A DNA stretch of 64,000 nucleotides, from NCBI GenBank assembly GCA_963718845.1, contig CAVRAD010000009.1, positions 125,171-189,170 of the forward strand, written 5' to 3'. The notes under the pieces were generated by a model. It was not told the origin of the DNA. It saw only the letters and a list, made by a program, of their open reading frames with translations, and ran no database searches. A program made the position numbers and the translations under genes. Of the stretch, positions 1 to 17,387 are shown piece after piece (position 1 is the first letter of the stretch; the number at the start of each line of letters is the position of its first letter). Origin of the DNA: an uncultured Acidobacteriota bacterium. Its GTDB lineage: Bacteria > Acidobacteriota > UBA6911.

Positions 1-247
1 CCCGGGCCGAATTCGGTCAGGATTTCGATGCCGTTGGTCGCCGGGTAGTTGCACGCCGTGACCATGCGGATGCGTTTGCCCGACCGCACCTCGACGGTGC
101 AGATGCGGCACACGCCGTAGGGCTCCAGCAGCGGGTGATGGCACAGAGTCGGGATCTTGATCCCAAGCTTCTGCGCGATATTGAGGATCGGGGTCCGGTC
201 CTCGGCTTCGGTTTCAATCCCGTTGATTTTTACTTTGATAGTTTTCA
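1..247 (-). CDS. N-terminal 2Fe-2S ferredoxin-like domain of a [FeFe]-hydrogenase large subunit / NuoG-like protein (HydA/HndD-type). Partial; the gene continues beyond the window start.
   Basis: Minus-strand translation from the ATG at 247 gives MKTIKVKINGIETEAEDRTPILNIAQKLGIKIPTLCHHPLLEPYGVCRICTVEVRSGKRIRMVTACNYPATNGIEIL. This is the typical plant-type 2Fe-2S N-terminal domain (CxxxxC...CxxC pattern) that follows hydB in HydABC/Hnd operons. Confidence 0.6.
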
Positions 248-249
248 TG

Positions 250-2104
250 CTGCGTAGCTCCTGGGAACCTTGCGGATCGCCTCGCGTTTGCAGGCCTCGA
301 TGCATGCGCCGCATTTGACGCACTTGGCTTTGTCCAGCGTGTGCGTTTTCTTCACTTCGCCTGAGATCGCTTGCTACCGAGCAGCCCCGTGACGCAGGCA
401 TGGCAGCCGTCGCATTTTTCCGGGTCGATCGTGTACTCGATCAGTTCTTTGCAGACGCCGCCCGGGACAACGATGGTCTTTGATGTGCGCGTCGTACTCG
501 TCTTTGAAGTAGCGGAGGGTTGAAAGAACCGGATTGGGCGCCGAGGTGCCGAGGGCGCACAGGCAGCAGTCCTGCATCACCTCGGCCGATTTCCTGGAGC
601 AGTTCGATGTCGCCGGGGACGCCTTTTCCCTGGGTGATTCTGTCGAGCGACATCCAGAGACGTCCTGCAGGCCCTTCGCGGCACGGGCGTGCACTTGCCG
701 CACGATTCTTCGGTCAGGAACGCGATGAAGTAGCGGGCGACGTCCACCATGCAGGTCTGATCGTCCATGACGATCATCCCGCCCGAACCCATCATCGATC
801 CCGCTTCCGTCAGGCTGTCGAAATCGACCGGCATATCGAGATGCGTTTCGGGCAGGCAGCCGCCGGAAGGTCCGCCGGTCTGCACCGCCTTGAATTTCCG
901 TCCGTCGGGGATGCCTCCGCCGATATCGAAGATGATCTCGCGCAGCGAAATCCCCATGGGGACTTCGATCAGGCCGGTGTTGTTGATTTTGCCGACCATG
1001 CGAGAAAACCTTGGTCCCGCTGCTGCCGTTCCAGGGATTGTCGGCGACGTTGCCGGTGCCCATCGAGCTGAACCACTGCGCCCCGCGGTTGATGATCAGC
1101 GGCACATTCGCCCAGGTCTCCACGTTGTTGAGGTTGGTCGGGCGGTTTTTATAGCCATACTCAACGGTGTGGATGTACTTGGCCCGGGGTTCGCCGACGT
1201 TCCCTTCCAGCGAAGCCATGAGGGCCGTGGATTCGCCGCACACGAAGGCCCCGGCGCCCTGGACGATTTCGATGTCGAAATCCATGCCGCTGCCGAGGAT
1301 GTCCTTGCCCAGAAGTCCGTAGTCGCGCGCCTGGTCGATCGCTTTCAGCAGGCGTTCCCGCGCGATGGGGTATTCGTGCCGGATGTACACGAAGCCTTCC
1401 TTGCATCCGATGGCGCGCGCGCCGATGATCATTCCTTCGAGCACGGAGTGCGGATCGCTTTCGATGATGCTCCGGTCCATGAATGCTCCCGGATCGCCTT
1501 CGTCGGCGTTGCAGACGATCACGGGTTCCACTCCGCGGTGCTGGGCGGCATGCCGGCAGGTTTCCCATTTCACGCCGGCAGGGAATCCGCCGCCGCCGCG
1601 GCCCCGCAGGCCGGATCTCTTGATCTCCGAAAGGATCTGTTCCGGCGTCATCTGGAACAGAGCCTTTTCCAGCGCCGTATAGCCGTCGACCGCGATGTAG
1701 TCGTCGATCTTTTCCGGATCGATGACGCCGCGGTTGCGGAGAACCACCAGCTTCTGCTTTGCGAAGAAGGGGATCTCTTTCAACGCGGGGATCGGCCCCT
1801 TTTCCGCCGGAGGCGTGTACATCAGCTTCTTGACGGGCCTGCCCTTAACCAGGTGTTCTTCGACCAGACTGGCGGCGTCCTTCGCCTGGACACCGCAGTA
1901 GAAGATCCCGTCGGGCTGCACGATCACGATGGGGCCTTCAGCGCAGAACCCCTGGCAGCCGGTCCTGATCACCTGCACTTCCTGGGCGAGACCTTTTTTG
2001 TAAATTTCATTTTCCAGAGCCGTCGCTGTTGCGTAAGAATTGCCGGAAACGCATCCGGTTCCTGCGCAAACCAACACATTGGTGCGGAATGCCATGATAT
2101 TCAT
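250..2104 (-). CDS. NuoF/HoxF-family NADH-binding flavoprotein subunit of a multimeric (bifurcating-type) [FeFe] hydrogenase (HydB/HndC-like). Apparent frameshifts near 380, 485, 645 and 1000.
   Basis: ORF 374..2104 carries an N-terminal thioredoxin-like 2Fe-2S domain, then the NuoF core ([28 protein letters not shown]). The polypeptide continues in two other frames (ORF 577..999: [15 protein letters not shown]...ESCGKCTPV; ORF 441..653: [19 protein letters not shown]). The true C-terminus, with a 2x[4Fe-4S] tail ([16 protein letters not shown]), reads through to the stop at 250-252. Confidence 0.85.
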
Positions 2105-2121
2105 ACCTCCCAGCCGGCGGT

Positions 2122-2993
2122 TTAGCCGGTAGTTTCACAGCCACTTGCAAGCGCGTAATCGGTTACAATCTTGCCCCCGAGAACATGGTCTTTGAGAATC
2201 CTCACAATCGCTTCAGGTTTCAGATCCACATATTTCACGGGGGATTGACCGGCTATTTCCACGGTCGCCATCGGCTCCCGGCTGCACAGTCCCGCGCAGC
2301 CCGAGGTGGTGACGATGACATCGGTTACCTTCTGGTTTTCGATCTCCTTCAGCAGGGCGCCCATAACATCCCGCGCGCCTGCGGAAATCCCGCAGGTGCC
2401 CATGTGCACGGTCACTTTGGCCCGTGCCTCTCCGGACCGCAGGGTCAAAGTGCGCTTTGCGTCCTCACGTATCTTTTTCAAGTCATCAATGGACAGTCTG
2501 GGCATTTTCTGCCTCCTTTGGCTTCTCCGGAGTTTTGGCTGGTATTGCTTGACCATCTTCGGCACGGAGGCTATTTTCACCTTTCCGTGCACATCCGTTC
2601 CTACCGTGATCACGGGCGCCAGGCCGCAGCAGCCGACACAGTTCACCGTATCCAGGCCGAACAGTTCGTCCGGTGTGGTCTCGCCCTTCTTGATCTTCAG
2701 TTCGCGCTCCAGCGCATCCACCAGCAGCGGTCCGCCCTGGATATTGCAGGCTGTGCCGTTGCAGACGCGAATTGGATGGCGACCGACGGGCTTGAGGCTG
2801 AAAGCCTTGAAGAAGGTCGCGATGGCCAGGACGGATGTCAGCGGGATCATTCACTCCGGCGGCCACCGCCTCGAGCACTTCGCGAGGCAGGTAGCAATAT
2901 GCCTCCTGGCAATCGAGCAGAATGGCAATCATGCGCTCGCGTTTTGCGCCGTGCTGTTTCGAGGATGTCGTTTACTCTTGAAACATCCACCAT
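2122..2993 (-). CDS. NuoE-like 2Fe-2S subunit fused to an HndB-like thioredoxin-like ferredoxin domain (HydC/HndA-type). Frameshifts near 2845 and 2935.
   Basis: N-terminal MVDVSRVNDILETARRK / MIAILLDCQEAYCYLPREVLEAVAAGVN lies in ORF 2486..2932. It continues in ORF 2122..2850 with VLAIATFFKAFSLKPVGRHPIRVCNGTACNIQGG...CVGCCGLAPV (the NuoE motif), then a second domain VHMGTCGISAGARDV...TTSGCAGLC. A GGAGGAA RBS sits 5 nt upstream of the ATG at 2993. Confidence 0.8.
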
Positions 2994-3014
2994 AGTATTC
3001 CTCCCGCTTCTTAC

Positions 3015-3110
3015 TTTTCCTTTTGTGAGGACGGCTCTCCAGAGCCGTCCGGACGAAATCTGCGCATTTACAGTCCGGACGGCTCTGGAGAGCTGTCCTC
3101 ACAAAATCAA
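3015..3110. repeat. Inverted duplication of a ~30-bp palindromic unit (GTGAGGACGGCTCTCCAGAGCCGTCCGGAC and its reverse complement) with a ~20-bp spacer. Likely an operator or terminator.
   Basis: Read directly. Each unit has an internal 9-10-bp stem (GACGGCTC/GAGCCGTC). Unit 2 is the reverse complement of unit 1 with one mismatch. It lies between the 3' end of the upstream regulator gene and the hydC/nuoE-like start. Confidence 0.7.
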
Positions 3111-3129
3111 TCCCGCTTCGCCTCTTCGT

Positions 3130-3642
3130 GATTGCTTCCCGCAAAATCGCCAGCCCTATAGGCAATGTCAGATCAATTTCGGCCGCACGAAAATCGCCGG
3201 AATCCAGCTCAAAAATCCGATCGTTGACGCGATGACGGAAGCGGATGTTTTTATCCGGCTGTCCGGCGACGAGAACCATGAGAGTCGTTTCGATATCGCC
3301 CAGCGGCGCTCTGTCCAATATGCCTGTGCTGGAAGGTTGCGCGAATCGTTGTGCCCTGTCCCGGCTTGGAGTCGATCGTGAGCGCTCCTCCGGCAGCTTT
3401 GGCTGCGGCGGCCAGCAGCGGCAATCCCATCCCAACCTTGCGCGTGGTCCTCGTCGTAAAGAACGGGTCCGTTACTTTTGCCAGCGGTGTCCGCATCCAT
3501 GCCGCGCCCGTTATCGCGGACACGACAAGACCATGGCATCTCCAGGCAGGTCCTCCCATATCTCGATTTCAATTGCGCCGGCGCCGGCTTCCAGGCTGTT
3601 CTGCGCGATATCCAGGATGTGCAATGCGAGATCTTCCATCGG
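3130..3642 (-). CDS. Histidine-kinase-like ATPase (HATPase_c) protein, hfsC / anti-sigma-regulatory-factor-like, associated with the hydrogenase locus. Several frameshifts; the 3' end is uncertain.
   Basis: MEDLALHILDIAQNSLEAGAGAIEIEI (from the ATG at 3642), VRDNGRGMD, DPFFTTRTTRKVGMGLPLLAAAAKAAGGALTIDSKPGQGTTIRATF (N-, G1- and G2-box-like motifs) are spread over ORFs 3511..3858, 3168..3572, 3251..3559 and 2929..3435. Confidence 0.6.
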
Positions 3643-4378
3643 CCTTCCTCCGCCGAGGATTGTCCTGCCGCCTTCCCCGGTCAACGCGCGCCGCAATTCC
3701 GCCAGCGTGGCTTCTTTCATCAGCACGAATGTCGCCGCCCGTGCGACGTCTTTGGGCTCGTGGGCATCGGAAGCGCAGAGAATCGGATATTCTCCTTTTG
3801 GAGCGAACGACGCGCGCGCCCGAGGAAGCGAGCGTTCGCTGCGAAACCTCGATCGCATCCAGAGGCAGGCCCGGGGGAATAAATCCCAGCTGGCCGATGA
3901 TGCCGAATCCCTCTCTGTCGACGTGAGAGGCGATGGCCAGGCCGTCGACGTCGTGGATGGCGGCGACCACTCGGTCCAGGTTCAGCGTGGTCGCGCCCGA
4001 GAGCAGGTGCTCCTCGAAACCCAGGACTTCGCCGGATTCGTTGGCGATCACCTGCATGCCGAATGCGCTTTCGTCGTTTCGCCCGGGCAGCGATCGGTAC
4101 ACCTTGGATTGAAGCTCCATCGCGGCGGCGATGTTGGGCAGCAGTCCCAGGATGTGCACTTCCTCCGAACTGGTGATCTCCATCCCCGGGATTACTGCCA
4201 ATCCGGCAGCATTTCCGGCGCGCTGCACCGCCGCGGCGTTTTCGGCGGAGTTGTGGTCGCACACAGCTATGGAATCCAGGCCCGCCCGGATCGCGGCATC
4301 CACGATGGCAGACGGATGCATGTCCAACTCAGCGCATGGGGACAGGCAGGTATGGATGTGTGTGTCGACCATAAACAC
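3640..4378 (-). CDS. PHP-domain metal-dependent phosphoesterase. Frameshift near 3800.
   Basis: MFMVDTHIHTCLSPCAELD...IAVCDHNS...GMEITS...HILGL...ASHVDRE, then a C-terminal PILCASDAHEPKDVARAATFVLM in ORF 3511..3858. These are typical PHP motifs. The same neighbourhood (PHP, HATPase, DRTGG, HydS) occurs in Thermotoga/Thermoanaerobacter hydrogenase loci. Confidence 0.7.
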
Positions 4379-4380
4379 CT

Positions 4381-4731
4381 TCAGACTGTCCTCCTTCCGC
4401 GAACACCCTGGGCAAAAAGAATCCCGATGGCGTCAAAAGCCTGCAGGGGGGTGGAGATGATCGGGATGCCGATTTCGTCTGCGCGAGCGACCGTGTCCGG
4501 TTCCGGCTGTCTACCGTTGACCAGAACAATCGCGGCCAGATTGTTGAGCTGGGCGACGGCCACGATGTTCACGTGCTTTTGCATGGTGACCCAGATATCG
4601 CCTTCGCGGCTGTTTCCCATCACGTCCGAGAGCAGGTCGGACGCATAGCCCCCCTGGATTTCCCGGTCCACTGCGGAGCTTCCAGCCATCACTGTGCCTT
4701 CGATACTTTGTGCGGCTTCGGCGACGTTCAT
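4381..4731 (-). CDS. DRTGG-domain protein (CBS-associated regulatory domain).
   Basis: A 116-aa intact ORF: GGYASDLLSDVMGNSREGDIWVTMQKHVNIVAVAQLNNLAAIVLVNGRQPEPDTVARADEIGIPIISTPLQAFDAIGILF. Its start overlaps the stop of the upstream HydS-like gene (ATGA). Confidence 0.7.
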   Translation of the reverse strand: MNVAEAAQSIEGTVMAGSSAVDREIQGGYASDLLSDVMGNSREGDIWVTMQKHVNIVAVAQLNNLAAIVLVNGRQPEPDTVARADEIGIPIISTPLQAFDAIGILFAQGVRGRRTV

Positions 4732-6062
4732 GGTTGTCCTCCGACTGCGTGTCTTTGAGTTCTAACAAGGCCGGCAAGCTGCTCGATCCGGTTTTCGAGC
4801 TCCCGCGCCAGAAGAAAACGCACAATTCCTTGTCCGCGTCGCCGAGCACGACATCCTCGGCAAATGCCCGGCAGGAGGGGGCGCCGCATGCGCCGCAATC
4901 GATCCGGGGCAATTCACCCAGTATCCTGTCCCGTTCCTTCATTTTGAGGATGGCTCTGGAGATGTCCGCGTCCAGCGGCCGCAGCGGCCGGCCGGTAAGA
5001 TACTCGTCCATCAGGAATTCCTTTTTCCTGTACGCTAATTCCACTTCGTGACGGTCCACCATGCATCCGGCCGGCAGGTTCTGCTGAAGCTTGATCGCTT
5101 TGCCGCGCGCCAGGTAGGGATTTTCGACGGTGAGACATCCTCCGACGCAGCCTTCGGGACACGCATGGCATTCGATATAGCGGTATTTGCGCAGCCGACC
5201 TTTTTCGATGTCATCCAGTATGCGCATCACGTTGGGCAGTCCCGCTACAGACAGCGTGTTTTCTGCCGGCAGCGACCGCGGGAATCTGCCCAAGAAAGGC
5301 CCAATCCAGACCCGAGGCGGACTCGACCGGGTCGATTTTGTATTCGGTTTCCTGGACTCTCGAAACGGCGGCCGCCAGGGTCTGGAACAGATCGCAGATC
5401 GAGACTGCCGCGTCGAGATGGGACCGCTGCATGCCGGGGTGCTCCAGAATCGCGACAATCTTGGCCGGGCAGGGAGTGATATACACGGCTCCGATTTTTT
5501 CCAGCGGCAGTCCGGTTTCTTTCGACAGGCGGAGCTTCGCGGCTCGCGCGGAAATTTCTCTGGGGGCCAGCACGGGCAGGAGTTGATCGACCAGTTCCGG
5601 GTATTTCACCTGCAGCAGCCGCACCACGGTCGGGCAGAAGGAGGAAATCAGAGGATATTGTCCCCGGTATTCGTTCATGAAAATCTCCGTTGCGAGGGTG
5701 ACGGCGTCGCACGCGGGCGAGACGCTTTCGACATCGTCGAAGCCGCACTGTTTCAGGGCGGTAAAGATCATGCCGGGGAAAACTTCCGAATCGAACTGGG
5801 CGTAGAGCGCGGGGGAGGGAATAGCCACCTTGCATTCGAATTTGGAGAGGTCGGCCATCTGGTCGGTCAGCGGGACGATGGCAGCCCGCGGACAAACCCG
5901 GATGCATTCGCCGCAGTCGATGCACCGGTCGGCGAGCTTCACGGCTCGCTCATTGCGAATGCGGACCGCGGCGGTCGGGCAGACGCGCATGCAGGACATG
6001 CATCCGTCGCATCGTTCCACGTCAAATCGCAATGAGTGATGATATTGAGCAACCATTTTCAA
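4729..6062 (-). CDS. Sensory-type [FeFe]-hydrogenase-like protein (HydS/HfsB-like): N-terminal 2x[4Fe-4S], an H-cluster-like domain with variant motifs, and a C-terminal Fe-S domain. Frameshifts near 5270 and 4845.
   Basis: ORF 5211..6062 has CDGCMSCMRVCPTAAV / CIDCGECIRVCPRAAI, an L1-like ISSFCPTVV and an L2-like ITPCPAKI. ORF 4511..5458 continues with an L3-like YIECHACPEGCVGGC and LPRIDCGACGAPSCRAFAEDVV. The last 40 aa (ARELENRIEQLAGLVRTQRHAVGGQP*) sit in a third frame. Non-canonical L1/L2 motifs are characteristic of sensory rather than catalytic hydrogenases. Confidence 0.7.
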
Positions 6063-6498
6063 GCCTTATGACCGTTTGTTTCACCCGGATATGAAGCCGG
6101 GTGCCCCGACCCACTTCCGAACTGATATTGAATTCATCCGCGTTTCTTCGAATGTTCGGCAACCCCATCCCGGCTCCGAATCCCATTTCTCTCATCTCCG
6201 GAGTGGCCGTCGAGTAGCCTTCCTGCATTGCCAGATTGATGTCCGGGATGCCCGGGCCCCTCGTCTTCGATGCGAAGCGTGATGTCTTCGCTGCTGACGT
6301 TGAGCCGGACTTTCCGCGCGTGGCATACATGACGAGATTCATCTCCGCCTCATACGAAACGATGGCGACGCGTCGCACCACCGCGGGATGAACGCCGAGG
6401 CGCTTGAGCGTATCCTTGATTTGAGTAGAAACTTTTCCCGCATTTGCAAAATCTCTGCCCAAAACGCTATAGGTACTTTCAAGTGCCTCCGCCATCAT
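6022..6498 (-). CDS. HATPase_c-domain protein (anti-sigma regulatory factor / Ser-kinase-like), a second copy. Compensating frameshift pair near 6260-6300.
   Basis: MMAEALEST...VVRRVAIVSYEAEMNLVMYA...GPGIPD...GFGAGMGLPNIRRNADEFNISSEVGRGTRLHI. Between ~6300 and ~6260 the alternate frame reads ARKVRLNVSSEDITLRIEDEGPG, the expected kinase-core sequence, whereas the ORF frame gives SGSTSAAKTSRFASKTRGPG. Confidence 0.7.
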   Translation of the reverse strand: MMAEALESTYSVLGRDFANAGKVSTQIKDTLKRLGVHPAVVRRVAIVSYEAEMNLVMYATRGKSGSTSAAKTSRFASKTRGPGIPDINLAMQEGYSTATPEMREMGFGAGMGLPNIRRNADEFNISSEVGRGTRLHIRVKQTVIRLENGCSISSLIAI

Positions 6499-6499
6499 T

Positions 6500-6876
6500 T
6501 GCTCTCTGAAAGTGCCATGTAAATCCGGCCGGCGGCTTCAAACATTTTGAACGGCGTGCCGAGAACCGGGATCTTTGATTCTCTCGCCAGGGAGAGGATG
6601 TCTTCGCCGGGTTTCTTGCCGCGCACAAAAACCACTCCGCATAGGTCCGCCACAATGGCCGTTCGTGATCACCTGTGTGCTGACAAGACCGGTGAGAAGA
6701 AGCGTTCCCGTTTTGCTTGTAGCCAGGACATCACTCAGCAGGTCCGCAGCTCCCACCGCAGCGACTTCTACCGAGAGGTCGTCGCCGTTGAGCACTTCGG
6801 CTCCAGGAGGTCCCGGATGTCGGCAAGTGTGAGTTGCTTCAGACCTGTCATTGAACCGGACATTTTCACCTTCGCT
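6500..6876 (-). CDS. DRTGG-domain protein, a second copy. Frameshifts near 6815 and 6655.
   Basis: Reconstructed as MSGSMTGLKQLTLADIRDLL / AEVLNGDDLSVEVAAVGAADLLSDVLATSKTGTLLLTGLVSTQVIT / RTAIVADLCGVVFVRGKKPGEDILSLARESKIPVLGTPFKMFEAAGRIYMALSESK* over three frames. The stop overlaps the ATG of the downstream HATPase gene. Confidence 0.65.
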
Positions 6877-6899
6877 AGTGTGCGGGGACCTTGTGAAAT

Positions 6900-7760
6900 C
6901 CATTGCCCCTGTTATGGCTTGCTTCTGCTGCCTTTGTGCGGCCGATAACCAGATTGCCCTTGCGGATAACCCTGGCTGCCGGAATTTTTCTGGCCGGGCA
7001 GGATTCCCAGCAGAGCCCGCAGCCGGTGCATTTGGTGTGATCGACATACGTGGCGTTGTGCCGGACCTTCACCCGGAAGTTGCCGACGAATCCTTCGACC
7101 TCTTCCACTTCGCTGGAGGACATCAGCTTGATGTTCGGGTGCTTTCCGACCTGGACCATCTTGGGCGTCAGGATGCACGCGGCGCAGTCCAGCGTGGGAA
7201 AGGTTTTGTCGAACACGGCCATGTGCCCGCCGATCGAAGGCTGCTTTTCGACCAGATATACGGTGCGGCCCGCATCGGCGATATCGAGCGCGGCCTGGAT
7301 TCCGGCGATGCCGGCGCCCACGACCAGAGCCGCGGGATTCACCGGGACGGTCTTGTGGGGCAGCGACTGACAGGTTGGCCGCCTTGGCTACCGCACCGGC
7401 AAGGAGCGCTTTGGCTTTTTCGGTCGCCGCGTTGGGATCGACCGTCACCCAGGAGCAGTGCTCCCGGATATTCGCCATCTGGAACAGGTAGCGGTTCACG
7501 TTCGCCCTCTCGCAGGCCCCGCGGAACGTGGGTTCATGCATGAGCGGCGAACAGGAGGCAACGACGACCCGGTCGAGACCGAGGTTTTTGATGTCGTCCT
7601 CGATGAGGATCTGGCCGGGATCGGAACACATGAATTTGTATTCCCGGGCTATGACTACTCCGGGCAGTTTCTTGGCAAATTCCGTTACTTCCGCAACATC
7701 CACTTTGCCGGAGATATTCGTGCCGCAATGGCACACATAGACGCCGATCTTGGTACTCAT
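6900..7760 (-). pseudogene. hdrA: HdrA-like (heterodisulfide reductase subunit A) N-terminal fragment: the Cys-rich N-domain, start of the FAD domain and first ferredoxin motif only. Frameshifted near 7360 and ~6960 and C-terminally truncated.
   Basis: ORF 6912..7760 MSTKIGVYVCHCGTNISGKVDV...YKFMCSDPGQ...VVVASCSP...ANIREHCSW. ORF 6875..7342 ALVVGAGIAGIQAALDIADAGRTVYLVEKQPSIGGHMAVFDKTFPTLDCAACILTPKM...CTGCGLCWESCPAR. After ~300 aa the next gene (DRTGG) begins, so the C-terminal ~350 aa normally present in HdrA is absent. Confidence 0.7.
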
Positions 7761-7769
7761 GCGATCTCC

Positions 7770-8640
7770 TTATGCGTATTTGGCCGTGACTTCCGTCGCC
7801 GGGACGATGCAGTCATTCAATCCCAGGCCTTTCGAATCCAGTCCGAAGGCAACGCCCATCAATTGAGTGAAATACACAATTGGAAGATTGAAATTCGTGC
7901 CGTAGGTCTTGTTAATGGCTGATTGAAACGCATCCAGGTTCATTTGACATAGCGGGCATGTTACCGCAATGCATTGCGCGTCGTACTGCTGGGCGCAGAG
8001 AAGGAGATTGCGGCAGAGGCGAAGCGCGACGTCCTTGCGTATTCCCATCAGCGAACCGCCGCAGCACACCGTCTTCATCGGATAGTAGGTCGGAGTTGCG
8101 CCGAGCGCTACAAGCAGCTTGTCCATCATGGTCGGATTGTCCGCGTCGTCTTCGATGCCGTAGGGCCGGGCGATCTGGCAGCCGTAATAGGGCGCCACGC
8201 GCAGCCCTGTAAGCGGATGCTTCACGAGCGATTTGATGCGATCGAGCCCGACATCTTCCACGACTGTCTGAAGGAAGTGCTTTGTAACGATGCCTCCTTC
8301 ATAGCTCAAGCCCGCCTCGGCGAGAGCCGTATTTACTTTGCTCTTAATTTCCGGGAATTCGGCCAGGTAGGTTTCCGTTTTGCGCAGGTTGGTGTAGCAG
8401 GCGCTGCAGGCGGTGACCAGCGTATCGCCTATTTTCTTCGCCTGGCACAGGTTGCGCGCGCTCAGGCTGAAGGAGAGGGCTTCGTTTACGCTCATGTAGG
8501 CGGTGGCGCCGCAGCAGTTCCAGTCTTCGAGTTCTACCAGTTCGATCCCCAGCGCCTTGGCAACGCGCGGCCACCGATTCTTGGTACGGCCTTCCGGTTG
8601 CTTCCAGAGAGCATCCCGGGTAGTAGGCGTAGCGCATCAT
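7770..8640 (-). CDS. hdrB: Heterodisulfide reductase subunit B-like (two CCG domains). Frameshift near 8500.
   Basis: N-terminal MMRYAYYPGCSLEATGRPYQESV (ORF 8344..8640), then ORF 7770..8495 with ACSACYTNL...YYGCQIARP...TVCCGG...TCPLCQMNLD. Confidence 0.8.
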
Positions 8641-9221
8641 TCACCTCCCAATTCTTTGGCTTTGGCAACAATTTTCCGAAGTCCCTCGATGTCGCGAACC
8701 TTTTTCCCGAATAGGGGAAGGCGGTTGTGAGTAATCAAGCCCGAGTCCGACAGGCGCAAGGGACATTCCACTCAATGGGCTTTGTCGACAATCATGACTT
8801 TAAGCATCAACGAAGTCTCGTGGTTGCGCCCCTTTTTGTTGACAATGTCGAAGAATGCCCTCGATAAGGCGGCTGCATTCTTGCTGCGCTTCCTGTTTTC
8901 CCGCATGGCCATTCTTTTGAGCATGTACATGATGTCCGTGATCTTGATCTCCTGAGGGCAGCGGTGCATGCATTGATAGCAGGAAGCGCAGGTCCAGATG
9001 GTGGTGCTGTCCAGCACCTTGTCCCGCATCCCCGCCCGGATCATGGCAAAGATCTGCCGCGGCGTTTCCTCCATTGCCCATGAGACCGGGCAGGATCCGC
9101 TGCAGGTCCCGCACTGGATGCAATCCTTGATCTTTTCTCCGCCTGGGATGCGATAGATCTCGTCAAGGAAATTCAAATCCATGGCCTGTTCATAAATAAC
9201 CGTCTGCTGCACTCCATTCAT
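8637..9221 (-). CDS. hdrC: Heterodisulfide reductase subunit C-like (2x[4Fe-4S]) with an in-frame TGA at 8770-8772.
   Basis: ORF 8772..9221 has CIQCGTCSGSCPV...CASCYQCMHRCPQEI. The same frame continues after the TGA as VECPLRLSDSGLITHNRLPLFGKKVRDIEGLRKIVAKAKELGGE*. The stop overlaps the hdrB ATG. Confidence 0.7.
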
Positions 9222-9928
9222 GAAGAGCCTCCGGTGCCCGGCGCAATCTCACGGAATCCTAAGGGATGCTGTGCATCGCGGGCTAAACGACGTATACCTG
9301 TTTTCCTCGATTTAATATCAAAAGATAAAATTCCCGAGGGCAGCCTTACCCTCCCATCGGGTCCTCCATCTTCATGGTCTGAACTGTAGCGTGAACAAAT
9401 TACCTTATTGAGCGCGATTATAGGACACGGGTTGTCCTACTGAGTATGTTTTATATGCACTTAACCGGCCATATTTTGTGAATTCGTGGAATAAAAATAT
9501 AAAGTCAAATAATACAAGGATATAACAGGAGTATATTTATTCTATTTGAAATATTGCATGAAAAAGTCGGCGTGAAAAATCCCAAATTGTGGTTGAATGA
9601 ACCAATTATGCGGGTCAAATAACCCAACATGCAGGTCGCCGTGCCTGGTTATAGTGTCCCTTCAGTAAGATTCCTGATGCCAGATTCCAGATTTGGAAAC
9701 ACTACTGTCCGGTTAAGGATTTGCGCTGATTTGGTTTGTTTAGCGCATCCATTTTTCTGGCCGATAGGGATTCCAGTTTTTTCGCGAAGCATGAAATCCG
9801 GCCCGTGGTAGTATAGTCAGCCGCAATAGAATTTTGACAATCTGGTCCGAAATGATTGGAGTGGTGCCACAGGTTTTCAGCGAAGGACGCTTCATGTTCA
9901 GTCTTCCGCCTATTCTCCCGGACTTATA

Positions 9929-10831
9929 ATGGATCTAAATTACATACTGGGCGTTTTTACGGCAATCTTTTGCGGAGTTTGCATGCAAACCGGCATCATT
10001 CTCCAAAAGAAGGCAGTGAACGACATGCCCACAGCCGACAAAACGCAAAGGTTCCTGGCGGCGCTTCTTAAAAACCCTCGATGGCTGGGAGGCCTCGCAC
10101 TGGAATATGGCGTGGGCACCTGTGCATTCATGATCGCACAGAGCCTGATCGGTCCGGCCCTGGTTCCCGGGCTTATGGCCTCGGGCTTGATTGTTCTGGC
10201 AATTGGTTCGGTCAAGATAATTGGAGAAGCACTCAACCTATCGGAATATATTGGGATTGCCCTGCTGATGGCTGGAATCTTGTTGCTCGGTCTAAGTGAG
10301 CTTGAAATAAACGTGGATGTCGTCCGGGATCGTCTGGCGGATTCAAACACTGCTTTACGAATTGCCATCCTTAGCATAAGCCTCTTCTTGTTATGGGGCT
10401 GGACCCATTTTCAGTCGCTCAAGCTTGCACGACGAAAGGGCATTCTCATGGCCTTTTCGAACGGATTTCCATTCGCAATCTCCAATTTCTGGATCAGTCC
10501 GCTCATAGCTGTGTTCGCAGTTGTCATGACCGGCAATGGCAATTGGCGGCAGACCGGGCTGTTTGTGTTGGCCAGCGTTATTCTTGTGGGATGCAATGTT
10601 CTTGGCATCAGGCAGACCAACGAGGCATTCAAGTATGCCCAGGCAAGCAATGTCATCCCGGTACAGCAGCTGTCAGTGCAGATTACGCCCATCTTGTTTT
10701 ACTTTTACGTCTATGCCCTAAAGCCCTCGAAGACTATTTCCGCCGTGTTTATCCTTGTAGCCGTTGCACTGATTATCCTTGCGGCGTTCCTTCTGGGCAG
10801 AAGGCAGTCGGAGCTTGAAAAGATAAAGTAA
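9929..10831 (+). CDS. Integral membrane protein, DMT-superfamily (EamA-like) transporter, ~10 TM helices.
   Basis: A 300-aa hydrophobic ORF with two similar halves and no frameshift. Identity comes from general EamA-like topology only. Confidence 0.5.
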   Translation: MDLNYILGVFTAIFCGVCMQTGIILQKKAVNDMPTADKTQRFLAALLKNPRWLGGLALEYGVGTCAFMIAQSLIGPALVPGLMASGLIVLAIGSVKIIGEALNLSEYIGIALLMAGILLLGLSELEINVDVVRDRLADSNTALRIAILSISLFLLWGWTHFQSLKLARRKGILMAFSNGFPFAISNFWISPLIAVFAVVMTGNGNWRQTGLFVLASVILVGCNVLGIRQTNEAFKYAQASNVIPVQQLSVQITPILFYFYVYALKPSKTISAVFILVAVALIILAAFLLGRRQSELEKIK

Positions 10832-10866
10832 ATCTCTGCACCATCGATTTATTCATTCGTAAATCG

Positions 10867-12720
10867 TCATTCGACGGTGACACTTTTTGCGAGGTTGCGC
10901 GGTTGGTCGACATCGCATCCGCGCAGCACGGCGATGTGGTAGGCCAAAAGCTGCAGGGGAACGATCATCAGTATCGGGAGCAGGCAATCGGCGATTTCCG
11001 GTATGCGGATGACGTGTTTAGATAGCCCGGCAATGCGGTCATCGTCCTCGCTTGCCAGGGCAACGATGATCCCTTCCCGCGCGCGCACTTCTTCGATGTT
11101 GCTGATCATTTTTTCGTAGCGCAGCACGGATTTGGGATTTCGTTTATCTCTGGCGGCCAGTGTGATGACGGGGAGGTTCTGGTCGATCAGGGCGTTGGGC
11201 CCGTGCTTCATTTCCCCGGCCGGATATCCTTCGGCGTGGATGTAGGAAATTTCTTTCAGCTTCAGCGCGCCCTCGAGTGCGATCGGATAATGAATGCCGC
11301 GTCCCAGGTACAGGGCGTTATTGCATCGGAGCAGCCTCCGGGCGATTTCCTCGTAGGTAGAGGTCTGATCCAGCATCTGTTCGATGCAATGCGGCACGCG
11401 AGCCAGTTCAGCGAGCAGCGGCTCCATCTGTTCCTGCGGGATTTGATTTCGTGCTCGAGCCAGGTACAGCGCTACCAGGACGAGAACGGCAATCTGGCTG
11501 GTGAAAGCTTTTGTGGAAGCGACCCCGATCTCCGGCCCGCTGCGCGTGTACAGGTTTCCATCGCTTTCCCGGGAAAGCATGCTCCCGACGACATTGCAGA
11601 TCGACAGGATCCTGGCGTGTTTTGCCTTTGCTTCACGGACCGCGGCCAGCGTGTCTGCCGTCTCGCCGGATTGACTGATAGCGATGACAAGGGAATTGGC
11701 GTTGACCAGCGGATTGCGATAGCGGAATTCCGAACCATAGTCGATTTCTACCGGTATGCGCGCGAAATCCTCGATTAAGAATTTGCCGACCAGAGCCGCG
11801 TGCCAGGAAGTCCCGCAGGCCACAATGTGGATCCGCTCGATTTTACTGAGCACATCTTCGGGGATGTTTGCCTCCTCGAGCAGGACCTCTCCGGAGTCCA
11901 GGGAAACACGGCCTGCGATAGTTTCCCGCAAACTGCGAGGCTGCTCATAAATTTCCTTGAGCATGAAGTGAGGAAAGCCGCCCTTTTCGGCCATTTCCGA
12001 ACTCCACTGAACTTCCTGCGGCGTGAATCCGATCTCGTGTCCGTGGAAATCCTGGATGACGACTCCCCCGGGCGAAAGAATGGCTATTTCGCCGTCCTTC
12101 ATAAAATACATAGTGCGGGTATGCTCCAGCAGCGCTGGAACGTCGGATGCCACAAAGTACTCGGTATCGCCCAACCCCACGATGAGCGGCGGGCCGTTGC
12201 GGGCAGCTAAAATCGTTCCCGGGCAGTCGGCCGAAATAATGCAAACAGCAAGACTGCCGCGCAGCTGTTCTATTGCGGCGCACGCCGCTTCGGGGAATGT
12301 CCTTCCCGGCAACATCGACTCCACGAGGTGCGCAATAACCTCGGTATCGGTCTCGGTAACGAACCGGTGGTTGCTTTCCTGCAGCCTGGTTTTCAGCTCG
12401 AGATAGTTTTCGATGATTCCATTGTGCACAACGACGATCCGGCCCGTGCAGTCGCGGTGCGGGTGCGCATTTTCTTCCGTCGGGCGGCCGTGGGTTGCCC
12501 AGCGCGTATGGCCAATTCCATAGTCTCCATCCAACGGTTCGGATTCGAGGGAACGCACAAGATTCGTCAGCTTGCCTGAGGTCCGCCGGATCAAAACCTG
12601 GCGATCGCGCACGACCGCGATTCCTGCAGAATCATATCCGCGATATTCCAGCTTGCGCAGCCCATTGATAATGACGGAAACAACGGACTTTGAACCCACA
12701 TATCCGACAATCCCACACAT
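10867..12720 (-). CDS. glmS: Glutamine--fructose-6-phosphate aminotransferase (isomerising).
   Basis: MCGIVGYVG...[11 protein letters not shown]-terminal Ntn amidotransferase domain, two SIS domains and a C-terminal ...AKSVTVE. 617 aa, full length, no frameshift. Confidence 0.95.
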
Positions 12721-12956
12721 AGATCACCCTCGATTCATCGACTCAGTTTCCAGGGCTCCGAGTGACTTGCCCTGCCGCGCCTTCCAAAAGAAGACTTGCC
12801 CGGGCATTGCTAAACCATATTTGTGTTACAATCCCCGCCGGCGCTCCAAGTCGTGCCAAGATTATAGATTACGTGAGCAAACGGGGCAACTGTCAGTGAA
12901 TTATCGACGCCAGTTGCCGAGGCTCCCTATCCTTTATCGGATAATTGCGGTGAAAC

Positions 12957-13439: not shown

Positions 13440-13467
13440 ACCGGAAACGGTTTATTCGGGAGAATCG

Positions 13468-16010: not shown

Positions 16011-16036
16011 AAGCTACAGGGGAGCGGGAGATTTAT

Positions 16037-17257: not shown

Positions 17258-17258
17258 C

Positions 17259-17356: not shown

Positions 17357-17387
17357 TCTTATATGAGTATAAAAAAACAGACACGAG

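What the first reader, a model, noticed from the sequence alone, without database searches (positions are those of the whole stretch)
1..9221. Electron-bifurcating-type [FeFe]-hydrogenase locus with a sensory HydS-like protein, duplicated DRTGG/HATPase regulators, a PHP phosphoesterase and a co-oriented HdrCBA
All genes here lie on the minus strand in one apparent transcription direction: hdrC-hdrB-hdrA', then DRTGG, HATPase, hydS-like, DRTGG, PHP, HATPase, a palindromic spacer, then hydC(nuoE-like+HndB)-hydB(nuoF-like)-hydA. The HydS-like protein has degenerate H-cluster motifs (ISSFCP, ITPCPAK, ECHACPEGCVGG) plus an extra C-terminal CGACGAPSC Fe-S domain, typical of non-catalytic H2-sensing hydrogenases. 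The DRTGG + HATPase + PHP trio matches the poorly characterised putative Ser/Thr-phosphorylation relay found beside trimeric hydrogenases in Thermotoga/Thermoanaerobacter. Here the DRTGG/HATPase pair is duplicated and the module is joined to heterodisulfide-reductase genes, an unusual combination linking H2 sensing, flavin-based bifurcation and Hdr.
Basis: partly seen in the sequence, partly recalled or inferred. Interest (0 to 1): 0.7.

Follow-up and report, generated by a model that had tools for sequence, protein, structure and literature searches.

The report
Hydrogen-sensor cassette inside Hdr/NiFe-hydrogenase operon
This stretch is the front part of a large operon, conserved in several groups of anaerobic bacteria, that combines a nickel-iron hydrogenase, a heterodisulfide reductase whose flavoprotein is split in two, an NADH/ferredoxin module and a built-in putative hydrogen-sensor gene set.

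Summary
The gene order and domains reported for 1-9221 (minus strand) are real. Three points of the interpretation fail.

(1) The gene cut by the window start is not HydA. In the 94%-identical relative and in five other lineages it is a 585-aa fusion of a BfuA/NuoG-like Fe-S N-terminus with the C-terminal two-thirds of HdrA. MvhD, MvhG, MvhA ([NiFe] group 3c-like) and HycI follow it.

(2) "hdrA'" is not a remnant. It is the conserved N-terminal half (about 294 aa) of this split HdrA.

(3) The roughly 30 frameshifts are private 1-bp indels, mostly insertions. The same lineage's substitutions are 79% synonymous, so the indels are long-read consensus errors, not decay. Synteny in more than 10 independent assemblies excludes a chimera.

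The HydS-like protein meets every sequence criterion of group D (M2e, TamHydS-type) putative sensory [FeFe]-hydrogenases.

The unit DRTGG-HATPase-HydS-DRTGG-PHP-HATPase, plus an HndB-like ferredoxin, is a portable cassette. Elsewhere it precedes a true HydABC or an Rnf operon.

The locus is best read as a new, undescribed-looking Hdr/Bfu/Mvh variant carrying that cassette. Its mechanism is inferred, not shown.

The parts
8637..9221 (-). hdrC (about 193 aa; 2x[4Fe-4S]). The C-terminal third is frameshifted by three private 1-bp insertions at 8793, 8776 and 8743.
   Evidence: Pfam Fer4_8/Fer4_17; NCBIfam CoB_CoM_SS_C E 1.5e-24, below cut-off; coordinates and indels.
7770..8640 (-). hdrB (289 aa; two CCG domains); one private insertion at 8565.
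   Evidence: Pfam CCG E 4.6e-24, 2 stretches; TIGR03288 E 1e-59, below cut-off.
6875..7760 (-). hdrA N-terminal half (about 294 aa): N-terminal Fe-S domain, first part of the FAD domain, and the first Cys motif of the inserted ferredoxin domain (CTGCGLCWESCP at 6995-7030). It ends with a conserved stop; one private insertion at 7371.
   Evidence: The L001 orthologue matches residues 12-268 of HdrA 8rvu (5-258 of 5odc) at E 9e-100. Proteins of the same 275-303 aa length occur in L018, L020, L021, L024 and L027.
6495..6874 (-). DRTGG protein 1 (about 125 aa); four private indels.
   Evidence: Pfam DRTGG on a window fragment and on the L001 orthologue, E 4e-8.
6063..6498 (-). HATPase 1 (about 144 aa), a SpoIIAB-like GHKL ATPase / Ser-kinase type; three private indels.
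   Evidence: Pfam HATPase_c and HATPase_c_2; PDB anti-sigma F factor 1til, E 1e-6; TIGR01925 E 4e-11, below cut-off.
4728..6062 (-). Group D (M2e-type) HydS-like [FeFe]-hydrogenase homologue (about 442 aa): 2x[4Fe-4S], H-domain, C-terminal Cx2Cx4Cx16C; two private indels (5293, 4804).
   Evidence: Pfam Fe_hyd_lg_C E 5e-30 and PF04060 E 4e-13 on the L001 orthologue; alignment to DdH; motif conservation in 88 relatives; criteria from PMC8163306.
4381..4731 (-). DRTGG protein 2 (116 aa), intact.
   Evidence: Pfam DRTGG E 6e-7; 35% identical to DRTGG1.
3099..4378 (-). PHP phosphoesterase fused to HATPase 2 (about 426 aa); five private insertions. The stop codon (3101-3099) lies inside the hairpin arm.
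   Evidence: Pfam PHP, PHP_C, HATPase_c; a single 426-aa ORF in L001; PDB histidine-kinase CA domains and PHP/TrpH-type enzymes; NCBIfam.
3021..3106 (-). Intercistronic hairpin with 34-nt arms and an 18-nt loop, followed by the RBS GGGAGG and the nuoE ATG at 2993.
   Evidence: Conserved in L012; relatives carry different palindromes at the same place. No Rfam family and no terminator-like U-tract.
2486..2993 (-). nuoE/hydC-like BfuC (about 169 aa); three private indels.
   Evidence: Pfam 2Fe-2S_thioredx E 4e-44 on the L001 orthologue; HoxE/NuoE NCBIfam hits.
2122..2505 (-). HndB-like thioredoxin-type [2Fe-2S] ferredoxin (127 aa), intact. It co-occurs with the sensor cassette, not with the Bfu core.
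   Evidence: Present in L018, L024, L027, L023 and L026. No HndB-like gene is called between NuoE and NuoF in the cassette-free L021; L022 is only partly annotated there.
245..2104 (-). nuoF/hydB-like BfuB (616 aa): N-terminal [2Fe-2S], FMN, SLBB, NADH_4Fe-4S, C-terminal 2x[4Fe-4S]; seven private indels.
   Evidence: Pfam. The L001 orthologue aligns over its full length to A. mobile NiFe-HydB 7t2r_B (E 5e-234), HydB 7q4v_B and 9mqx_B.
1..248 (-). First 82 codons ([2Fe-2S] domain) of the BfuA-like::HdrA C-terminal fusion gene, cut by the window start.
   Evidence: 97% identical over 78 aa to the start of the L001 fusion protein. DNA is 94% identical to L012, where the ORF continues to 610 aa, of which the 585 aa from the conserved start match HdrA positions 245-651. 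Pfam Fer2_4.

Best explanation
SHOWN (by sequence comparison):
- Window 1-9221 is the 5' two-thirds of a roughly 14-kb, 16-19-gene operon.
- Its order is hdrC, hdrB, hdrA(N half), then the cassette (DRTGG1, HATPase1, group-D HydS, DRTGG2, PHP-HATPase2), a hairpin, then nuoE (BfuC), an HndB-like ferredoxin, nuoF (BfuB) and the BfuA-like N-terminus fused to the HdrA C half. In relatives, just beyond the window start, mvhD, mvhG, mvhA and hycI follow (plus hypB/hypA in L018/L019).
- The only [FeFe]-hydrogenase-type protein is the sensor-type HydS. The catalytic hydrogenase is an Mvh-like [NiFe] enzyme.
- HdrA is split exactly at the first Cys motif of its inserted ferredoxin domain.
- The Bfu genes lie between the two hdrA halves, and the sensor cassette too in some lineages.
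- The frame breaks are consensus errors of a long-read assembly.

INFERRED (mechanism):
- The products form one cytoplasmic complex.
- H2 oxidised at MvhAG enters the HdrA flavin via MvhD.
- The high-potential branch reduces an unidentified disulfide at HdrBC.
- The low-potential branch normally leaves HdrA through the inserted ferredoxin domain. Here it is hard-wired through the BfuA clusters (A4-A2-A1) into the BfuBC FMN/Fe-S site, which handles NAD(P)(H) and ferredoxin.
- The reaction may run in either direction.
- The cassette measures H2 with the slow, high-affinity group-D H-cluster protein. It passes the signal through the two GHKL ATPases, the two DRTGG proteins and the PHP phosphoesterase.
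- The cassette has no DNA-binding protein, so the target is probably the NADH-binding flavoprotein module encoded immediately downstream (NuoEF here and in HydABC loci, RnfC in Selenihalanaerobacter), not a promoter.
For: Gene content and order.

Split HdrA: HdrA-N matches HdrA residues 5-268 (E 1e-100). The fusion's residues 149-582 match HdrA residues 230-652 (E 5e-118). The fusion's residues 1-190 match BfuA/NuoG-type N-termini (9mqx_A E 9e-39), and it has no Fe_hyd_lg_C domain.

BfuB identity: full-length match to 7t2r_B, E 5e-234.

MvhA-like subunit: 5odc_F E 6e-125 and 7t2r_D E 6e-122.

Conservation of the whole arrangement:
- 16 Acidobacteriota MAG loci, colinear over window 3-9240 wherever the contigs reach that far.
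- Aminicenantes L018/L019.
- Two further lineages whose HydS is only 37% and 42% identical.
- Cassette-free versions of the core operon in L020, L021 and L022.
- More than 110 full-length fusion clusters at 58-91% identity.

Cassette portability: the same gene set stands before a true HydABC in L026 and before rnfCDGEA + hdrCBA in Selenihalanaerobacter shriftii L023. HndB-like travels with it.

Group-D features.

TamHydS biochemistry (high H2 affinity, low rates, unknown partners): PMC8163306 and PMC13104023.

Tight gene packing with overlapping or abutting stops and starts supports co-translation.

Indels as artefacts:
- 30 private indels: 23 of +1 bp, 5 of -1 bp, one +2 and one +3.
- None of 1 bp in L001, L003, L006 and L014, one in L005, and 7 in the other nanopore MAG, L012.
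- Private substitutions fall 24/4/1 on codon positions 3/1/2, with 23 synonymous against 6 nonsynonymous.
- Other housekeeping genes in the window are also frameshifted.
Against: - No experiment exists on any member. Complex formation, substrates, direction and the disulfide are all unknown.
- The fusion, MvhDGA and HycI lie outside the window. They are inferred for this genome from a 94%-identical relative.
- Whether these genomes carry hydE/F/G, needed for an H-cluster in HydS, could not be checked.
- TamHydS's C-terminal cluster does not respond to H2 (PMC13104023), so the signalling route is open.
- The PHP domain is nearest to nucleotide phosphoesterases of the TrpH/YciV type, not to protein phosphatases. 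This weakens a simple kinase/phosphatase relay.
- The claim that the inserted ferredoxin domain is the low-potential exit of HdrA rests on my recollection of Wagner et al. 2017, not on a tool result.
- Indel density is uneven: none in glmS and Lon, about 3 per kb in the locus. I cannot explain that without reads.
- I could not read Appel et al. 2021, so a prior description of the split HdrA cannot be excluded.
Confidence: 0.65

Rival explanations
1. One reading: a trimeric electron-bifurcating [FeFe]-hydrogenase HydABC with its sensor and regulators, which merely happens to sit next to hdrCBA.
For: NuoE-, NuoF- and [2Fe-2S] HydA-like N-terminal domains are present in the window in the HydC-HydB-HydA order. 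The same cassette does precede a true HydABC in L026.
Against: In every relative that extends past the window start (L001, L012, L018, L019, L024, L027), the third gene lacks Fe_hyd_lg_C and is HdrA residues 230-652, followed by MvhDGA. Its N-terminus lacks the His-ligated cluster motif that the true HydA of L026 has, in 0 of 113 family members. The window's 78 aligned residues are 97% identical to the L001 fusion.
Confidence: 0.03
2. The locus is a decaying pseudogene cluster: the frameshifts are real mutations and the enzyme is dead in this organism.
For: About 30 frame-disrupting indels lie in 9.3 kb while the adjacent glmS and Lon genes are intact.
Against: - Private substitutions of the same lineage are 79% synonymous and 83% at third codon positions.
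- Apart from a stop shared with L012 one codon before the end of HATPase1, there is no in-frame nonsense codon and no deletion longer than 1 bp.
- Insertions outnumber deletions 25:5, opposite to the deletional bias of bacterial pseudogenes (my own knowledge: Mira, Ochman and Moran 2001).
- Housekeeping genes elsewhere in the window (mreB, PBP2, dxr, clpB-like) are also frameshifted.
- The other nanopore MAG, L012, has 7 such indels. L001, L003, L006 and L014 have no 1-bp private indel and L005 has one.
Confidence: 0.05
3. The operon is real, but the HydS-like protein and its partners do not sense H2. Either they sense the redox state of the ferredoxin/NADH pool through Fe-S clusters only, with no [2Fe] subsite, or they are accessory or assembly factors or extra electron-transfer subunits of NuoF/RnfC-type modules.
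For: - No hydEFG lies in the 64-kb window.
- The cassette accompanies enzymes whose common element is a Complex1_51K flavoprotein (NuoF or RnfC), and one of them (Rnf, L023) neither makes nor uses H2.
- An HndB-like ferredoxin travels with it.
- The cassette has no DNA-binding output.
- The C-terminal cluster of TamHydS does not respond to H2.
Against: All four H-cluster cysteines and the CN-binding lysine are kept in about 85 of 88 relatives despite 65-93% overall identity. That argues for a bound H-cluster. TamHydS binds the [2Fe] subsite and turns over H2 (PMC8163306). GHKL, DRTGG and PHP domains are signalling or regulatory types, not redox subunits.
Confidence: 0.22
4. One operon encodes separate enzymes: a BfuABC-type NADH/ferredoxin module and an Hdr-Mvh hydrogenase that work independently. 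The split HdrA would be a gene-order accident with no physical wiring between the two.
For: No biochemical data exist. Operons can encode several enzymes.
Against: The BfuA-like Fe-S N-terminus and the HdrA C half are one polypeptide in more than 110 sequence clusters. The junction sits at homologous ferredoxin motifs. The Bfu genes are always sandwiched between the two HdrA halves, in seven loci from five or more lineages. This is the same argument used for Codh-, Mbh- and Nuo-Bfu in PMC9304861.
Confidence: 0.1

Closest known systems
MvhAGD-HdrABC of methanogens ([NiFe] group 3c hydrogenase / heterodisulfide reductase; PDB 5ODC, 8RVU)
   Same: HdrB with two CCG domains, HdrC, all HdrA domains, MvhD, and the [NiFe] small and large subunits are present. 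E-values to the solved chains run from 1e-95 to 1e-125.
   Different: HdrA is split into two genes at the inserted ferredoxin domain. Its C half is fused to a BfuA-like [2Fe-2S] + 2x[4Fe-4S] module. NuoE/NuoF (BfuCB) genes lie between the halves. It is bacterial, so CoM-S-S-CoB is not the substrate. All NCBIfam Hdr equivalogs score below their cut-offs.
Bfu family, especially the NiFe-HydABCSL of Acetomicrobium mobile (PDB 7T2R) and Bam-Bfu (class II benzoyl-CoA reductase BamB-I)
   Same: A full-length BfuB (E 5e-234 to 7t2r_B) and a BfuC. The BfuA N-terminus has the A1/A2/A4 motifs but not the His-ligated cluster, like the Type 2 / clade 45 enzymes. Like Bam-Bfu it combines a Bfu core with an HdrA module. 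Like NiFe-Bfu it uses a group-3 [NiFe] hydrogenase.
   Different: BfuA is covalently fused to part of HdrA. HdrBC and MvhD are present. There is no tungsten/AOR subunit (unlike Bam) and no BfuA C-terminal domain. No Hdr- or Mvh-Bfu type and no Acidobacteria appear in the main text of the family survey PMC9304861; its supplementary tables were not searched.
Group D (M2e) putative sensory [FeFe]-hydrogenase, TamHydS of Thermoanaerobacter mathranii
   Same: N-terminal 2x[4Fe-4S], an H-domain with all four Cys ligands, no Cys299, Thr in place of Met353, the exact C-terminal Cx2Cx4Cx16C motif, no PAS domain, and a flanking histidine-kinase-like ATPase.
   Different: It is encoded inside an Hdr/Bfu/[NiFe]-Mvh operon rather than upstream of a group A [FeFe]-hydrogenase. 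No AraC-type regulator lies nearby. Phe occupies position 299 and His position 497.
Group C HydS of Thermotoga maritima (M2f)
   Same: A putative sensory [FeFe]-hydrogenase with N-terminal clusters and a C-terminal four-Cys motif, encoded near a NuoEF-type enzyme (PMC8163306).
   Different: Group C carries a C-terminal PAS domain. None is found here (Pfam).
The same cassette upstream of a true trimeric HydABC (locus L026, GCA_964651435.1) and upstream of Rnf (Selenihalanaerobacter shriftii, L023)
   Same: HATPase, M2e HydS, a DRTGG-like protein, PHP, HATPase and an HndB-like protein in the same order, directly before a NuoE/NuoF or RnfC gene. L023 also has the first DRTGG gene.
   Different: The downstream enzyme differs: an [FeFe] HydA with Fe_hyd_lg_C + Fe_hyd_SSU, or RnfCDGEA. 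HndB-like precedes NuoE or RnfC there, rather than following NuoE. PHP and HATPase2 are separate genes.
Archaeal hybrid [FeFe]/[NiFe] hydrogenase complexes (group F; Greening et al. 2024, PMC11216029)
   Same: An [FeFe]-hydrogenase-family gene, a group-3 [NiFe] large subunit and NuoE/F/G-like subunits in one cluster.
   Different: There the [FeFe] subunit is catalytic and fused to the [NiFe] small subunit. Here it is a separate group D sensor-type protein surrounded by signalling domains, and Hdr is present.

Membership tests
Electron-bifurcating trimeric [FeFe]-hydrogenase HydABC (group A3) | [quoted passage not shown] | tested here: not met
   The orthologues of the gene at window 248-1 (L001, L012, L018, L024, L027) have no Fe_hyd_lg_C and align to HdrA residues 230-652. 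A true HydA in L026 shows what the positive looks like.
Electron-bifurcating trimeric [FeFe]-hydrogenase HydABC (group A3) | HydB (NuoF-like, with an N-terminal [2Fe-2S] and C-terminal 2x[4Fe-4S]) and HydC (NuoE-like) | tested here: met
Bfu family (BfuBC core enzymes) | A conserved BfuB with an FMN site and N- and C-terminal Fe-S domains, plus BfuC | tested here: met
   Full-length alignment to 7t2r_B, 7q4v_B, 9mqx_B and 8a6t_B, E 1e-211 to 5e-234. NuoE-like 2Fe-2S_thioredx, E 4e-44.
Bfu family (BfuBC core enzymes) | A BfuA-type N-terminal Fe-S module that feeds the core | tested here: met
   Fer2_4 plus two CxxCxxCxxxC motifs in 112 of 113 family members, and no His-cluster motif (Type 2-like).
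Bfu family (BfuBC core enzymes) | Demonstrated NAD(P)H/ferredoxin-coupled bifurcation | not testable with these tools
   Needs enzyme assays.
MvhAGD-HdrABC ([NiFe] group 3c) | HdrB with two CCG domains and HdrC with two [4Fe-4S] motifs | tested here: met
MvhAGD-HdrABC ([NiFe] group 3c) | HdrA as one roughly 650-aa polypeptide | tested here: not met
   It is split into a 294-aa N half and a fusion protein carrying the C half.
MvhAGD-HdrABC ([NiFe] group 3c) | MvhD, MvhG and MvhA encoded with Hdr | tested here: met
   Met in the relatives L001, L012, L018-L022, L024 and L027. For this genome the region lies outside the window.
Group D (M2e) putative sensory [FeFe]-hydrogenase | Two N-terminal [4Fe-4S] motifs, an H-domain, a C-terminal Cx2Cx4Cx16C motif and no PAS domain | tested here: met
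   The window sequence CGACGAPSC-x16-C fits exactly. Criteria are from PMC8163306.
Group D (M2e) putative sensory [FeFe]-hydrogenase | Cys299 absent; Met353 replaced by Ser or Thr; the H-cluster Cys ligands retained | tested here: met
   ISSFCP, ITPCPAK and ECHACPEGC, aligned to DdH. Conserved in the family.
Group D (M2e) putative sensory [FeFe]-hydrogenase | Encoded upstream of a group A bifurcating [FeFe]-hydrogenase (the usual, not strictly defining, context) | tested here: not met
   The downstream enzyme is Bfu/HdrA/Mvh.
Group D (M2e) putative sensory [FeFe]-hydrogenase | An assembled H-cluster (hydEFG in the genome) and an H2 response | not testable with these tools
   Only 64 kb of this genome is available, with no hydEFG in it.
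Group C HydS (T. maritima type, M2f) | A C-terminal PAS domain | tested here: not met
   No PAS hit in Pfam.
SpoIIAB-type partner-switching Ser kinase module | A GHKL kinase of the SpoIIAB type plus a STAS-domain substrate and a PP2C phosphatase | tested here: not met
   HATPase1 resembles SpoIIAB only weakly (E 1e-6 in PDB; TIGR01925 at 42.9 bits against a cut-off of 135). No STAS or PP2C gene is in the locus.
Bam-Bfu (class II benzoyl-CoA reductase) | A tungsten-pterin BamB (AOR family) subunit together with HdrA-like and BfuABC subunits | tested here: not met
   No AOR-family gene appears in any of the operons listed.

The most novel reading that the evidence does not exclude
The operon encodes a single super-complex in which two mechanistically different electron-bifurcating modules are covalently wired together through a BfuA::HdrA fusion. 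One is the HdrA FAD site and the other is the BfuBC FMN/Fe-S site. Both are coupled to a [NiFe] hydrogenase and a disulfide reductase. [quoted passage not shown] The cassette's DRTGG, GHKL and PHP proteins would then be the long-sought signalling partners of group D HydS.
Probability: 0.3. Interest if true: 0.8.

Novelty: new variant of a known kind. Interest (0 to 1): 0.6.

Why it matters
Three open questions become testable.

(1) Workers on group D HydS state that its interaction partners and signalling route are unknown (PMC13104023). The strictly conserved neighbours defined here name the candidates: two DRTGG proteins, two GHKL ATPases, a PHP phosphoesterase and an HndB-like ferredoxin. 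The three contexts of the cassette (HydABC, Rnf, Hdr/Bfu/Mvh) point to NADH-binding NuoF/RnfC modules as the likely target.

(2) A natural BfuA::HdrA fusion would be the clearest genetic evidence yet that a Bfu core and an HdrA flavin can be wired in series. That idea has so far only been proposed for Bam-Bfu (PMC9304861).

(3) The enzyme is common in uncultured Acidobacteriota, Aminicenantes and other anaerobes of soils and sediments. Automatic annotation calls its parts '4Fe-4S binding protein' or 'HdrA'. H2/NADH/ferredoxin budgets inferred from such MAGs may therefore be wrong. A reader seeing only NuoE-NuoF-[2Fe-2S] would miscall it an [FeFe]-hydrogenase, as happened here.

Tried and rejected
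- **Chimeric assembly at the hdrA'/DRTGG junction (about 6875).** Rejected. The junction is colinear in more than 10 independent MAG assemblies, and the 294-aa HdrA-N ends at a conserved stop.
- **Low-quality contig end as the cause of the indels.** The closest relative's locus lies inside a 657-kb contig, and frameshifts occur all over the window. The error is assembly-wide but uneven. Not resolved further.
- **Real pseudogenisation.** Rejected on substitution pattern and indel spectrum.
- **The Bfu genes and fusion N-terminus descending from a truncated HydA of an A3 operon that brought the cassette along.** Rejected. The fusion N-terminus lacks the His-ligated cluster motif present in true HydA. 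It is closer to the WorA-type 9mqx_A and to cassette-free fusions than to the HydA of L026 (54% against 31% identity). Cassette-free core operons also exist.
- **Recent duplication of DRTGG/HATPase.** Rejected (35% and 24% identity).
- **The spacer hairpin as a known RNA family, an intrinsic terminator or a repeated REP-like element.** There is no Rfam hit, no U-tract and no other copy in the window.
- **Sigma-54 or sigma-70 promoter scans.** Nothing above chance.
- **Literature searches for a prior description of a split HdrA with NuoEF and Mvh, or of the DRTGG/PHP/HydS cassette.** Nothing found. Appel et al. 2021 is not held.
- **PDB sequence search for DRTGG2.** No informative hit.

Full report
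**1. What is in the window**

From high to low coordinates it is:
- HdrC (Fer4_8).
- HdrB (two CCG stretches, E 5e-24).
- An HdrA-like N-terminal protein (FAD_oxidored/NAD_binding_8 plus one Fer4 motif).
- DRTGG.
- HATPase_c.
- A protein with two Fer4 motifs, Fe_hyd_lg_C and the PF04060 Fe-S motif.
- DRTGG.
- PHP + PHP_C.
- HATPase_c.
- A spacer.
- A NuoE-like protein (2Fe-2S_thioredx, E 1e-36).
- A NuoF-like protein (Complex1_51K E 5e-43, SLBB, NADH_4Fe-4S, Fer4).
- At the very edge of the window, a Fer2_4 [2Fe-2S] domain.

The quoted motifs lie at 5631-5648, 5460-5480, 5138-5173 and 4871-4897. Nearly every gene is broken across frames.

**2. Not a chimera; a conserved operon**

A scan of one genome per species with the reconstructed HydS-like protein returned 16 loci, all from Acidobacteriota MAGs. 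One of them, L012 (MFD02979.bin.2.93), is 94% identical in DNA to window 3-9693.

Window 3 to about 9240 is colinear in L001, L003, L005, L006 and L012, and in two blocks in L004, L008, L014 and L016. This includes the hdrA'/DRTGG junction, and glmS follows in several of them.

L001, an 80%-identical MAG, has every gene intact:
- HdrC.
- HdrB (289 aa).
- A 294-aa HdrA-N that ends at a stop codon.
- DRTGG1 (125 aa).
- HATPase1 (144 aa).
- HydS-like (442 aa).
- DRTGG2 (116 aa).
- A single 426-aa PHP-HATPase2 protein.
- NuoE (169-180 aa).
- A separate, overlapping HndB-like gene (127 aa).
- NuoF (616 aa).
- A 585-610-aa protein.
- MvhD (FlpD, E 2e-56).
- A [NiFe] small subunit (Oxidored_q6).
- A [NiFe] large subunit.
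- A maturation protease.

**3. The 'hydA' is a BfuA::HdrA fusion, and 'hdrA'' is the other half**

- The L001 protein whose first 78 residues are 97% identical to the window's edge gene has no Fe_hyd_lg_C domain.
- Against the PDB, its residues 1-190 match BfuA/NuoG/HydA N-terminal Fe-S modules. The best is 9mqx_A at E 9e-39, an entry mentioned in the WorABCSL paper PMC12318220.
- Its residues 149-582 match residues 230-652 of HdrA (9sfi_A E 5e-118; 5odc_A E 6e-112).
- HdrA-N matches residues 12-268 of HdrA 8rvu (5-258 of 5odc) at E 9e-100.
- Together the two proteins therefore cover a whole HdrA.
- The break is at the first Cx2Cx2Cx3CP motif of the inserted ferredoxin domain, and both halves keep that motif.
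- The L012 orthologue gives the same result with NCBIfam: HdrA positions 245-651, with only positions 1-92 of an [FeFe]-hydrogenase model.
- The large subunit downstream is Mvh-like (5odc_F E 6e-125; 7t2r_D E 6e-122).
- NuoF is a full-length BfuB/HydB (7t2r_B E 5e-234).

**4. Distribution**

The fusion family has more than 110 full-length clusters at 58-91% identity. Sources annotate them as 'heterodisulfide reductase subunit A' or '4Fe-4S binding protein'.

Gene neighbourhoods:
- Aminicenantes (L018/L019) has the identical order including the cassette, plus HycI, HypB and HypA.
- A 'Deltaproteobacteria' MAG (L020), a sediment contig (L021) and GCA_026416715.1 (L022) have HdrC-HdrB-HdrA-N-NuoE-NuoF-fusion-MvhDGA-HycI without the cassette. 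HdrA-N and part of NuoE are not called in L022, and NuoF is not called in L020.
- Identities among all these lineages are similar: 55-69% for HdrA-N and the fusion.
- The split-HdrA core is therefore old. The cassette was gained or lost independently of it.
- The fusion N-terminus carries a [2Fe-2S] motif and two CxxCxxCxxxC motifs. It never carries the His-ligated cluster motif, in 0 of 113 members. That matches the Type 2 / clade 45 BfuA pattern (A1, A2, A4) of PMC9304861. It differs from the true HydA of L026, which has the motif.

**5. The sensor cassette**

*HydS-like protein.* It aligns to the D. desulfuricans enzyme with all four H-cluster cysteines and the lysine of the MPCxxK motif retained. 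Phe replaces the proton-relay Cys299, Thr replaces Met353 and His replaces Met497. Its C-terminus is exactly Cx2Cx4Cx16C, and no PAS domain is found. These are the criteria given for the M2e subclass / group D, of which TamHydS is the prototype (PMC8163306). The motifs are conserved in about 85 of 88 relatives. An exhaustive search finds 335 clusters (at 50% identity) with E below 1e-30, most aligned over their full length.

*Contexts of distant representatives.*
- L024 (37% identical HydS) and L027 (42%) have the same Hdr/cassette/Bfu/fusion/Mvh operon.
- L026 has HATPase, HydS, a 115-aa DRTGG-like protein (no Pfam hit recorded), PHP, HATPase and HndB-like, followed by NuoE, NuoF and a true HydA with Fe_hyd_lg_C + Fe_hyd_SSU.
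- Selenihalanaerobacter shriftii (L023) has the full set DRTGG, CBS-HATPase, HydS, DRTGG, PHP, HATPase and HndB-like, followed by rnfCDGEA and then hdrCB and a full-length hdrA.
- L025 has only DRTGG-HATPase-HydS.

*Other cassette members.*
- The two DRTGG proteins are 35% identical and the two HATPases 24%. They are old paralogues and both are standard cassette members.
- HATPase1 is SpoIIAB-like.
- HATPase2 is a histidine-kinase CA domain without a DHp/HisKA domain.
- The PHP part is nearest to TrpH/YciV-type nucleotide phosphoesterases.
- The HndB-like ferredoxin is 33-60% identical between all these loci. No HndB-like gene is called between NuoE and NuoF in the cassette-free L021, and L022 is only partly annotated there. 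I therefore count it as a seventh cassette gene.

**6. The frameshifts**

- In a seven-genome alignment the window has 30 private indels in 9.3 kb: 23 of +1 bp, 5 of -1 bp, one +2 and one +3.
- L012, another nanopore MAG, has 7 single-base ones. L001, L003, L006 and L014 have none of 1 bp and L005 has one. Only some of the window's indels lie in homopolymers.
- The window's private substitutions fall 24/4/1 on codon positions 3/1/2, and 23 of 29 are synonymous. The only in-frame stop in the corrected alignment is one shared with L012, a single codon before the end of HATPase1.
- Housekeeping genes elsewhere in the window are also split: mreB, PBP2, dxr, a Memo-like gene and a clpB-like gene.
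- The sequence is therefore under purifying selection, and the indels are consensus errors.
The NuoE+HndB 'fusion' comes from a deletion at 2536. The 149-aa HdrC comes from insertions at 8743-8793.
- Why glmS and Lon next door are clean remains unexplained.

**7. The spacer**

- Between the PHP-HATPase2 stop (3101-3099) and the nuoE RBS and ATG (2993) lies an almost perfect hairpin at 3106-3021. It has 34-nt arms, dG -71.7 kcal/mol and z -8.3.
- The arm sequence occurs nowhere else in the window.
- It is conserved in L012. In L014 it is interrupted by about 300 bp. In L001, L003, L005 and L006 different palindromes occupy the same place. In Aminicenantes it is absent, because the genes overlap there.
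- It has no U-tract and no Rfam match.
- Conservation of structure but not of sequence suggests an RNA-level role, either differential stability or attenuation between the two operon halves. This is inference only.

**8. Mechanism (inferred)**

- Genes abut or overlap throughout, and the Bfu genes are always sandwiched between the two HdrA halves. A single complex is therefore the economical reading.
- By analogy with MvhAGD-HdrABC, H2 would reduce the HdrA FAD via MvhD, and HdrBC would take the high-potential electron to a disulfide.
- As I recall from Wagner et al. 2017 (not a tool result), the inserted ferredoxin domain is the low-potential exit. Here it is continuous with BfuA.
- Low-potential electrons would then pass into, or come from, the BfuBC site that handles NAD(P)H and ferredoxin. 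This resembles the series arrangement proposed for Bam-Bfu (PMC9304861).
- The cassette would report H2. TamHydS has high H2 affinity and low turnover.
- It has no DNA-binding member. Its constant downstream neighbour is a Complex1_51K flavoprotein module, NuoEF or RnfC. I therefore favour direct control of that module, with low confidence.

**9. Comparison and novelty**

All building blocks belong to known families: Hdr-Mvh, Bfu and group D HydS. Three things appear not to be described:
- The split HdrA fused to BfuA.
- The placement of a group D sensor cassette inside a [NiFe]/Hdr operon, or before Rnf.
- The full seven-gene definition of the cassette.

I base this on the searches I could make. 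The main text of the Bfu survey names no Hdr/Mvh type and no Acidobacteria; I did not search its supplementary tables. The group D papers place the gene next to group A hydrogenases and call the partners unknown. Appel et al. 2021 could not be read, so priority is uncertain.

I rate the locus a new variant of known kinds, of moderate to high interest to specialists. The headline '[FeFe]-hydrogenase locus' is wrong.

Noticed in passing
window 2122-2505 (-); L023 12981-13337; L026 12076-12435: The HndB-like thioredoxin-type [2Fe-2S] protein follows the sensor cassette into Rnf and true-HydABC contexts. No such gene is called between NuoE and NuoF in the cassette-free L021 operon, and L022 is only partly annotated there. 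It therefore looks like a cassette member rather than an enzyme subunit. In L026 its Cys ligands are replaced.
   Followed up: partly
window 3640-4378 (-), PHP part of PHP-HATPase2: The PHP domain scores best against TrpH/YciV-type nucleotide phosphoesterases (pAp phosphatase NF041577, RNase AM NF047791, PDB 7ug9), not against protein phosphatases. This hints at a nucleotide signal rather than a plain kinase/phosphatase relay.
   Followed up: partly
window 9929-10831 (+): A 300-aa hydrophobic ORF with no Pfam hit lies between glmS and the hdrC upstream region. It is absent at this position in the 94-96% identical relative L012, so it is a recent gene-sized indel.
   Followed up: no
window 26857-27952, 29257-31184, 46028-47222, 51824-52468, 56274-58596: mreB, PBP2, dxr, a Memo-like gene and a clpB-like gene are each split over two or more frames. 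The indel problem therefore affects the whole window, though glmS (10867-12720) and the Lon-like gene (13351-15900) are intact.
   Followed up: partly
window 52810-54072 (-): A second, canonical-length NuoF (421 aa; Complex1_51K, SLBB, NADH_4Fe-4S) stands without a recognisable NuoE or NuoG neighbour among the ORFs scanned.
   Followed up: no
L023 (Selenihalanaerobacter shriftii FUWM01000011.1) 8718-21299: The complete sensor cassette is followed by rnfCDGEA and then by hdrC, hdrB and a full-length hdrA. This is a second, independent association of the cassette with Hdr genes, in a cultured Firmicute that could be used for experiments.
   Followed up: partly
L024 6139-6720 and L027 5055-5576: In two distant lineages a second HycI-like protease gene (a weak or faint Pfam hit) precedes hdrC at the head of the operon. 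No counterpart lies upstream of hdrC in the window.
   Followed up: no
L014, region aligned to window 3021-3106: In this 84-87% identical relative the two hairpin arms are separated by about 300 bp of extra sequence that itself contains nested palindromes. The spacer may be a hotspot for insertion of small palindromic elements.
   Followed up: no
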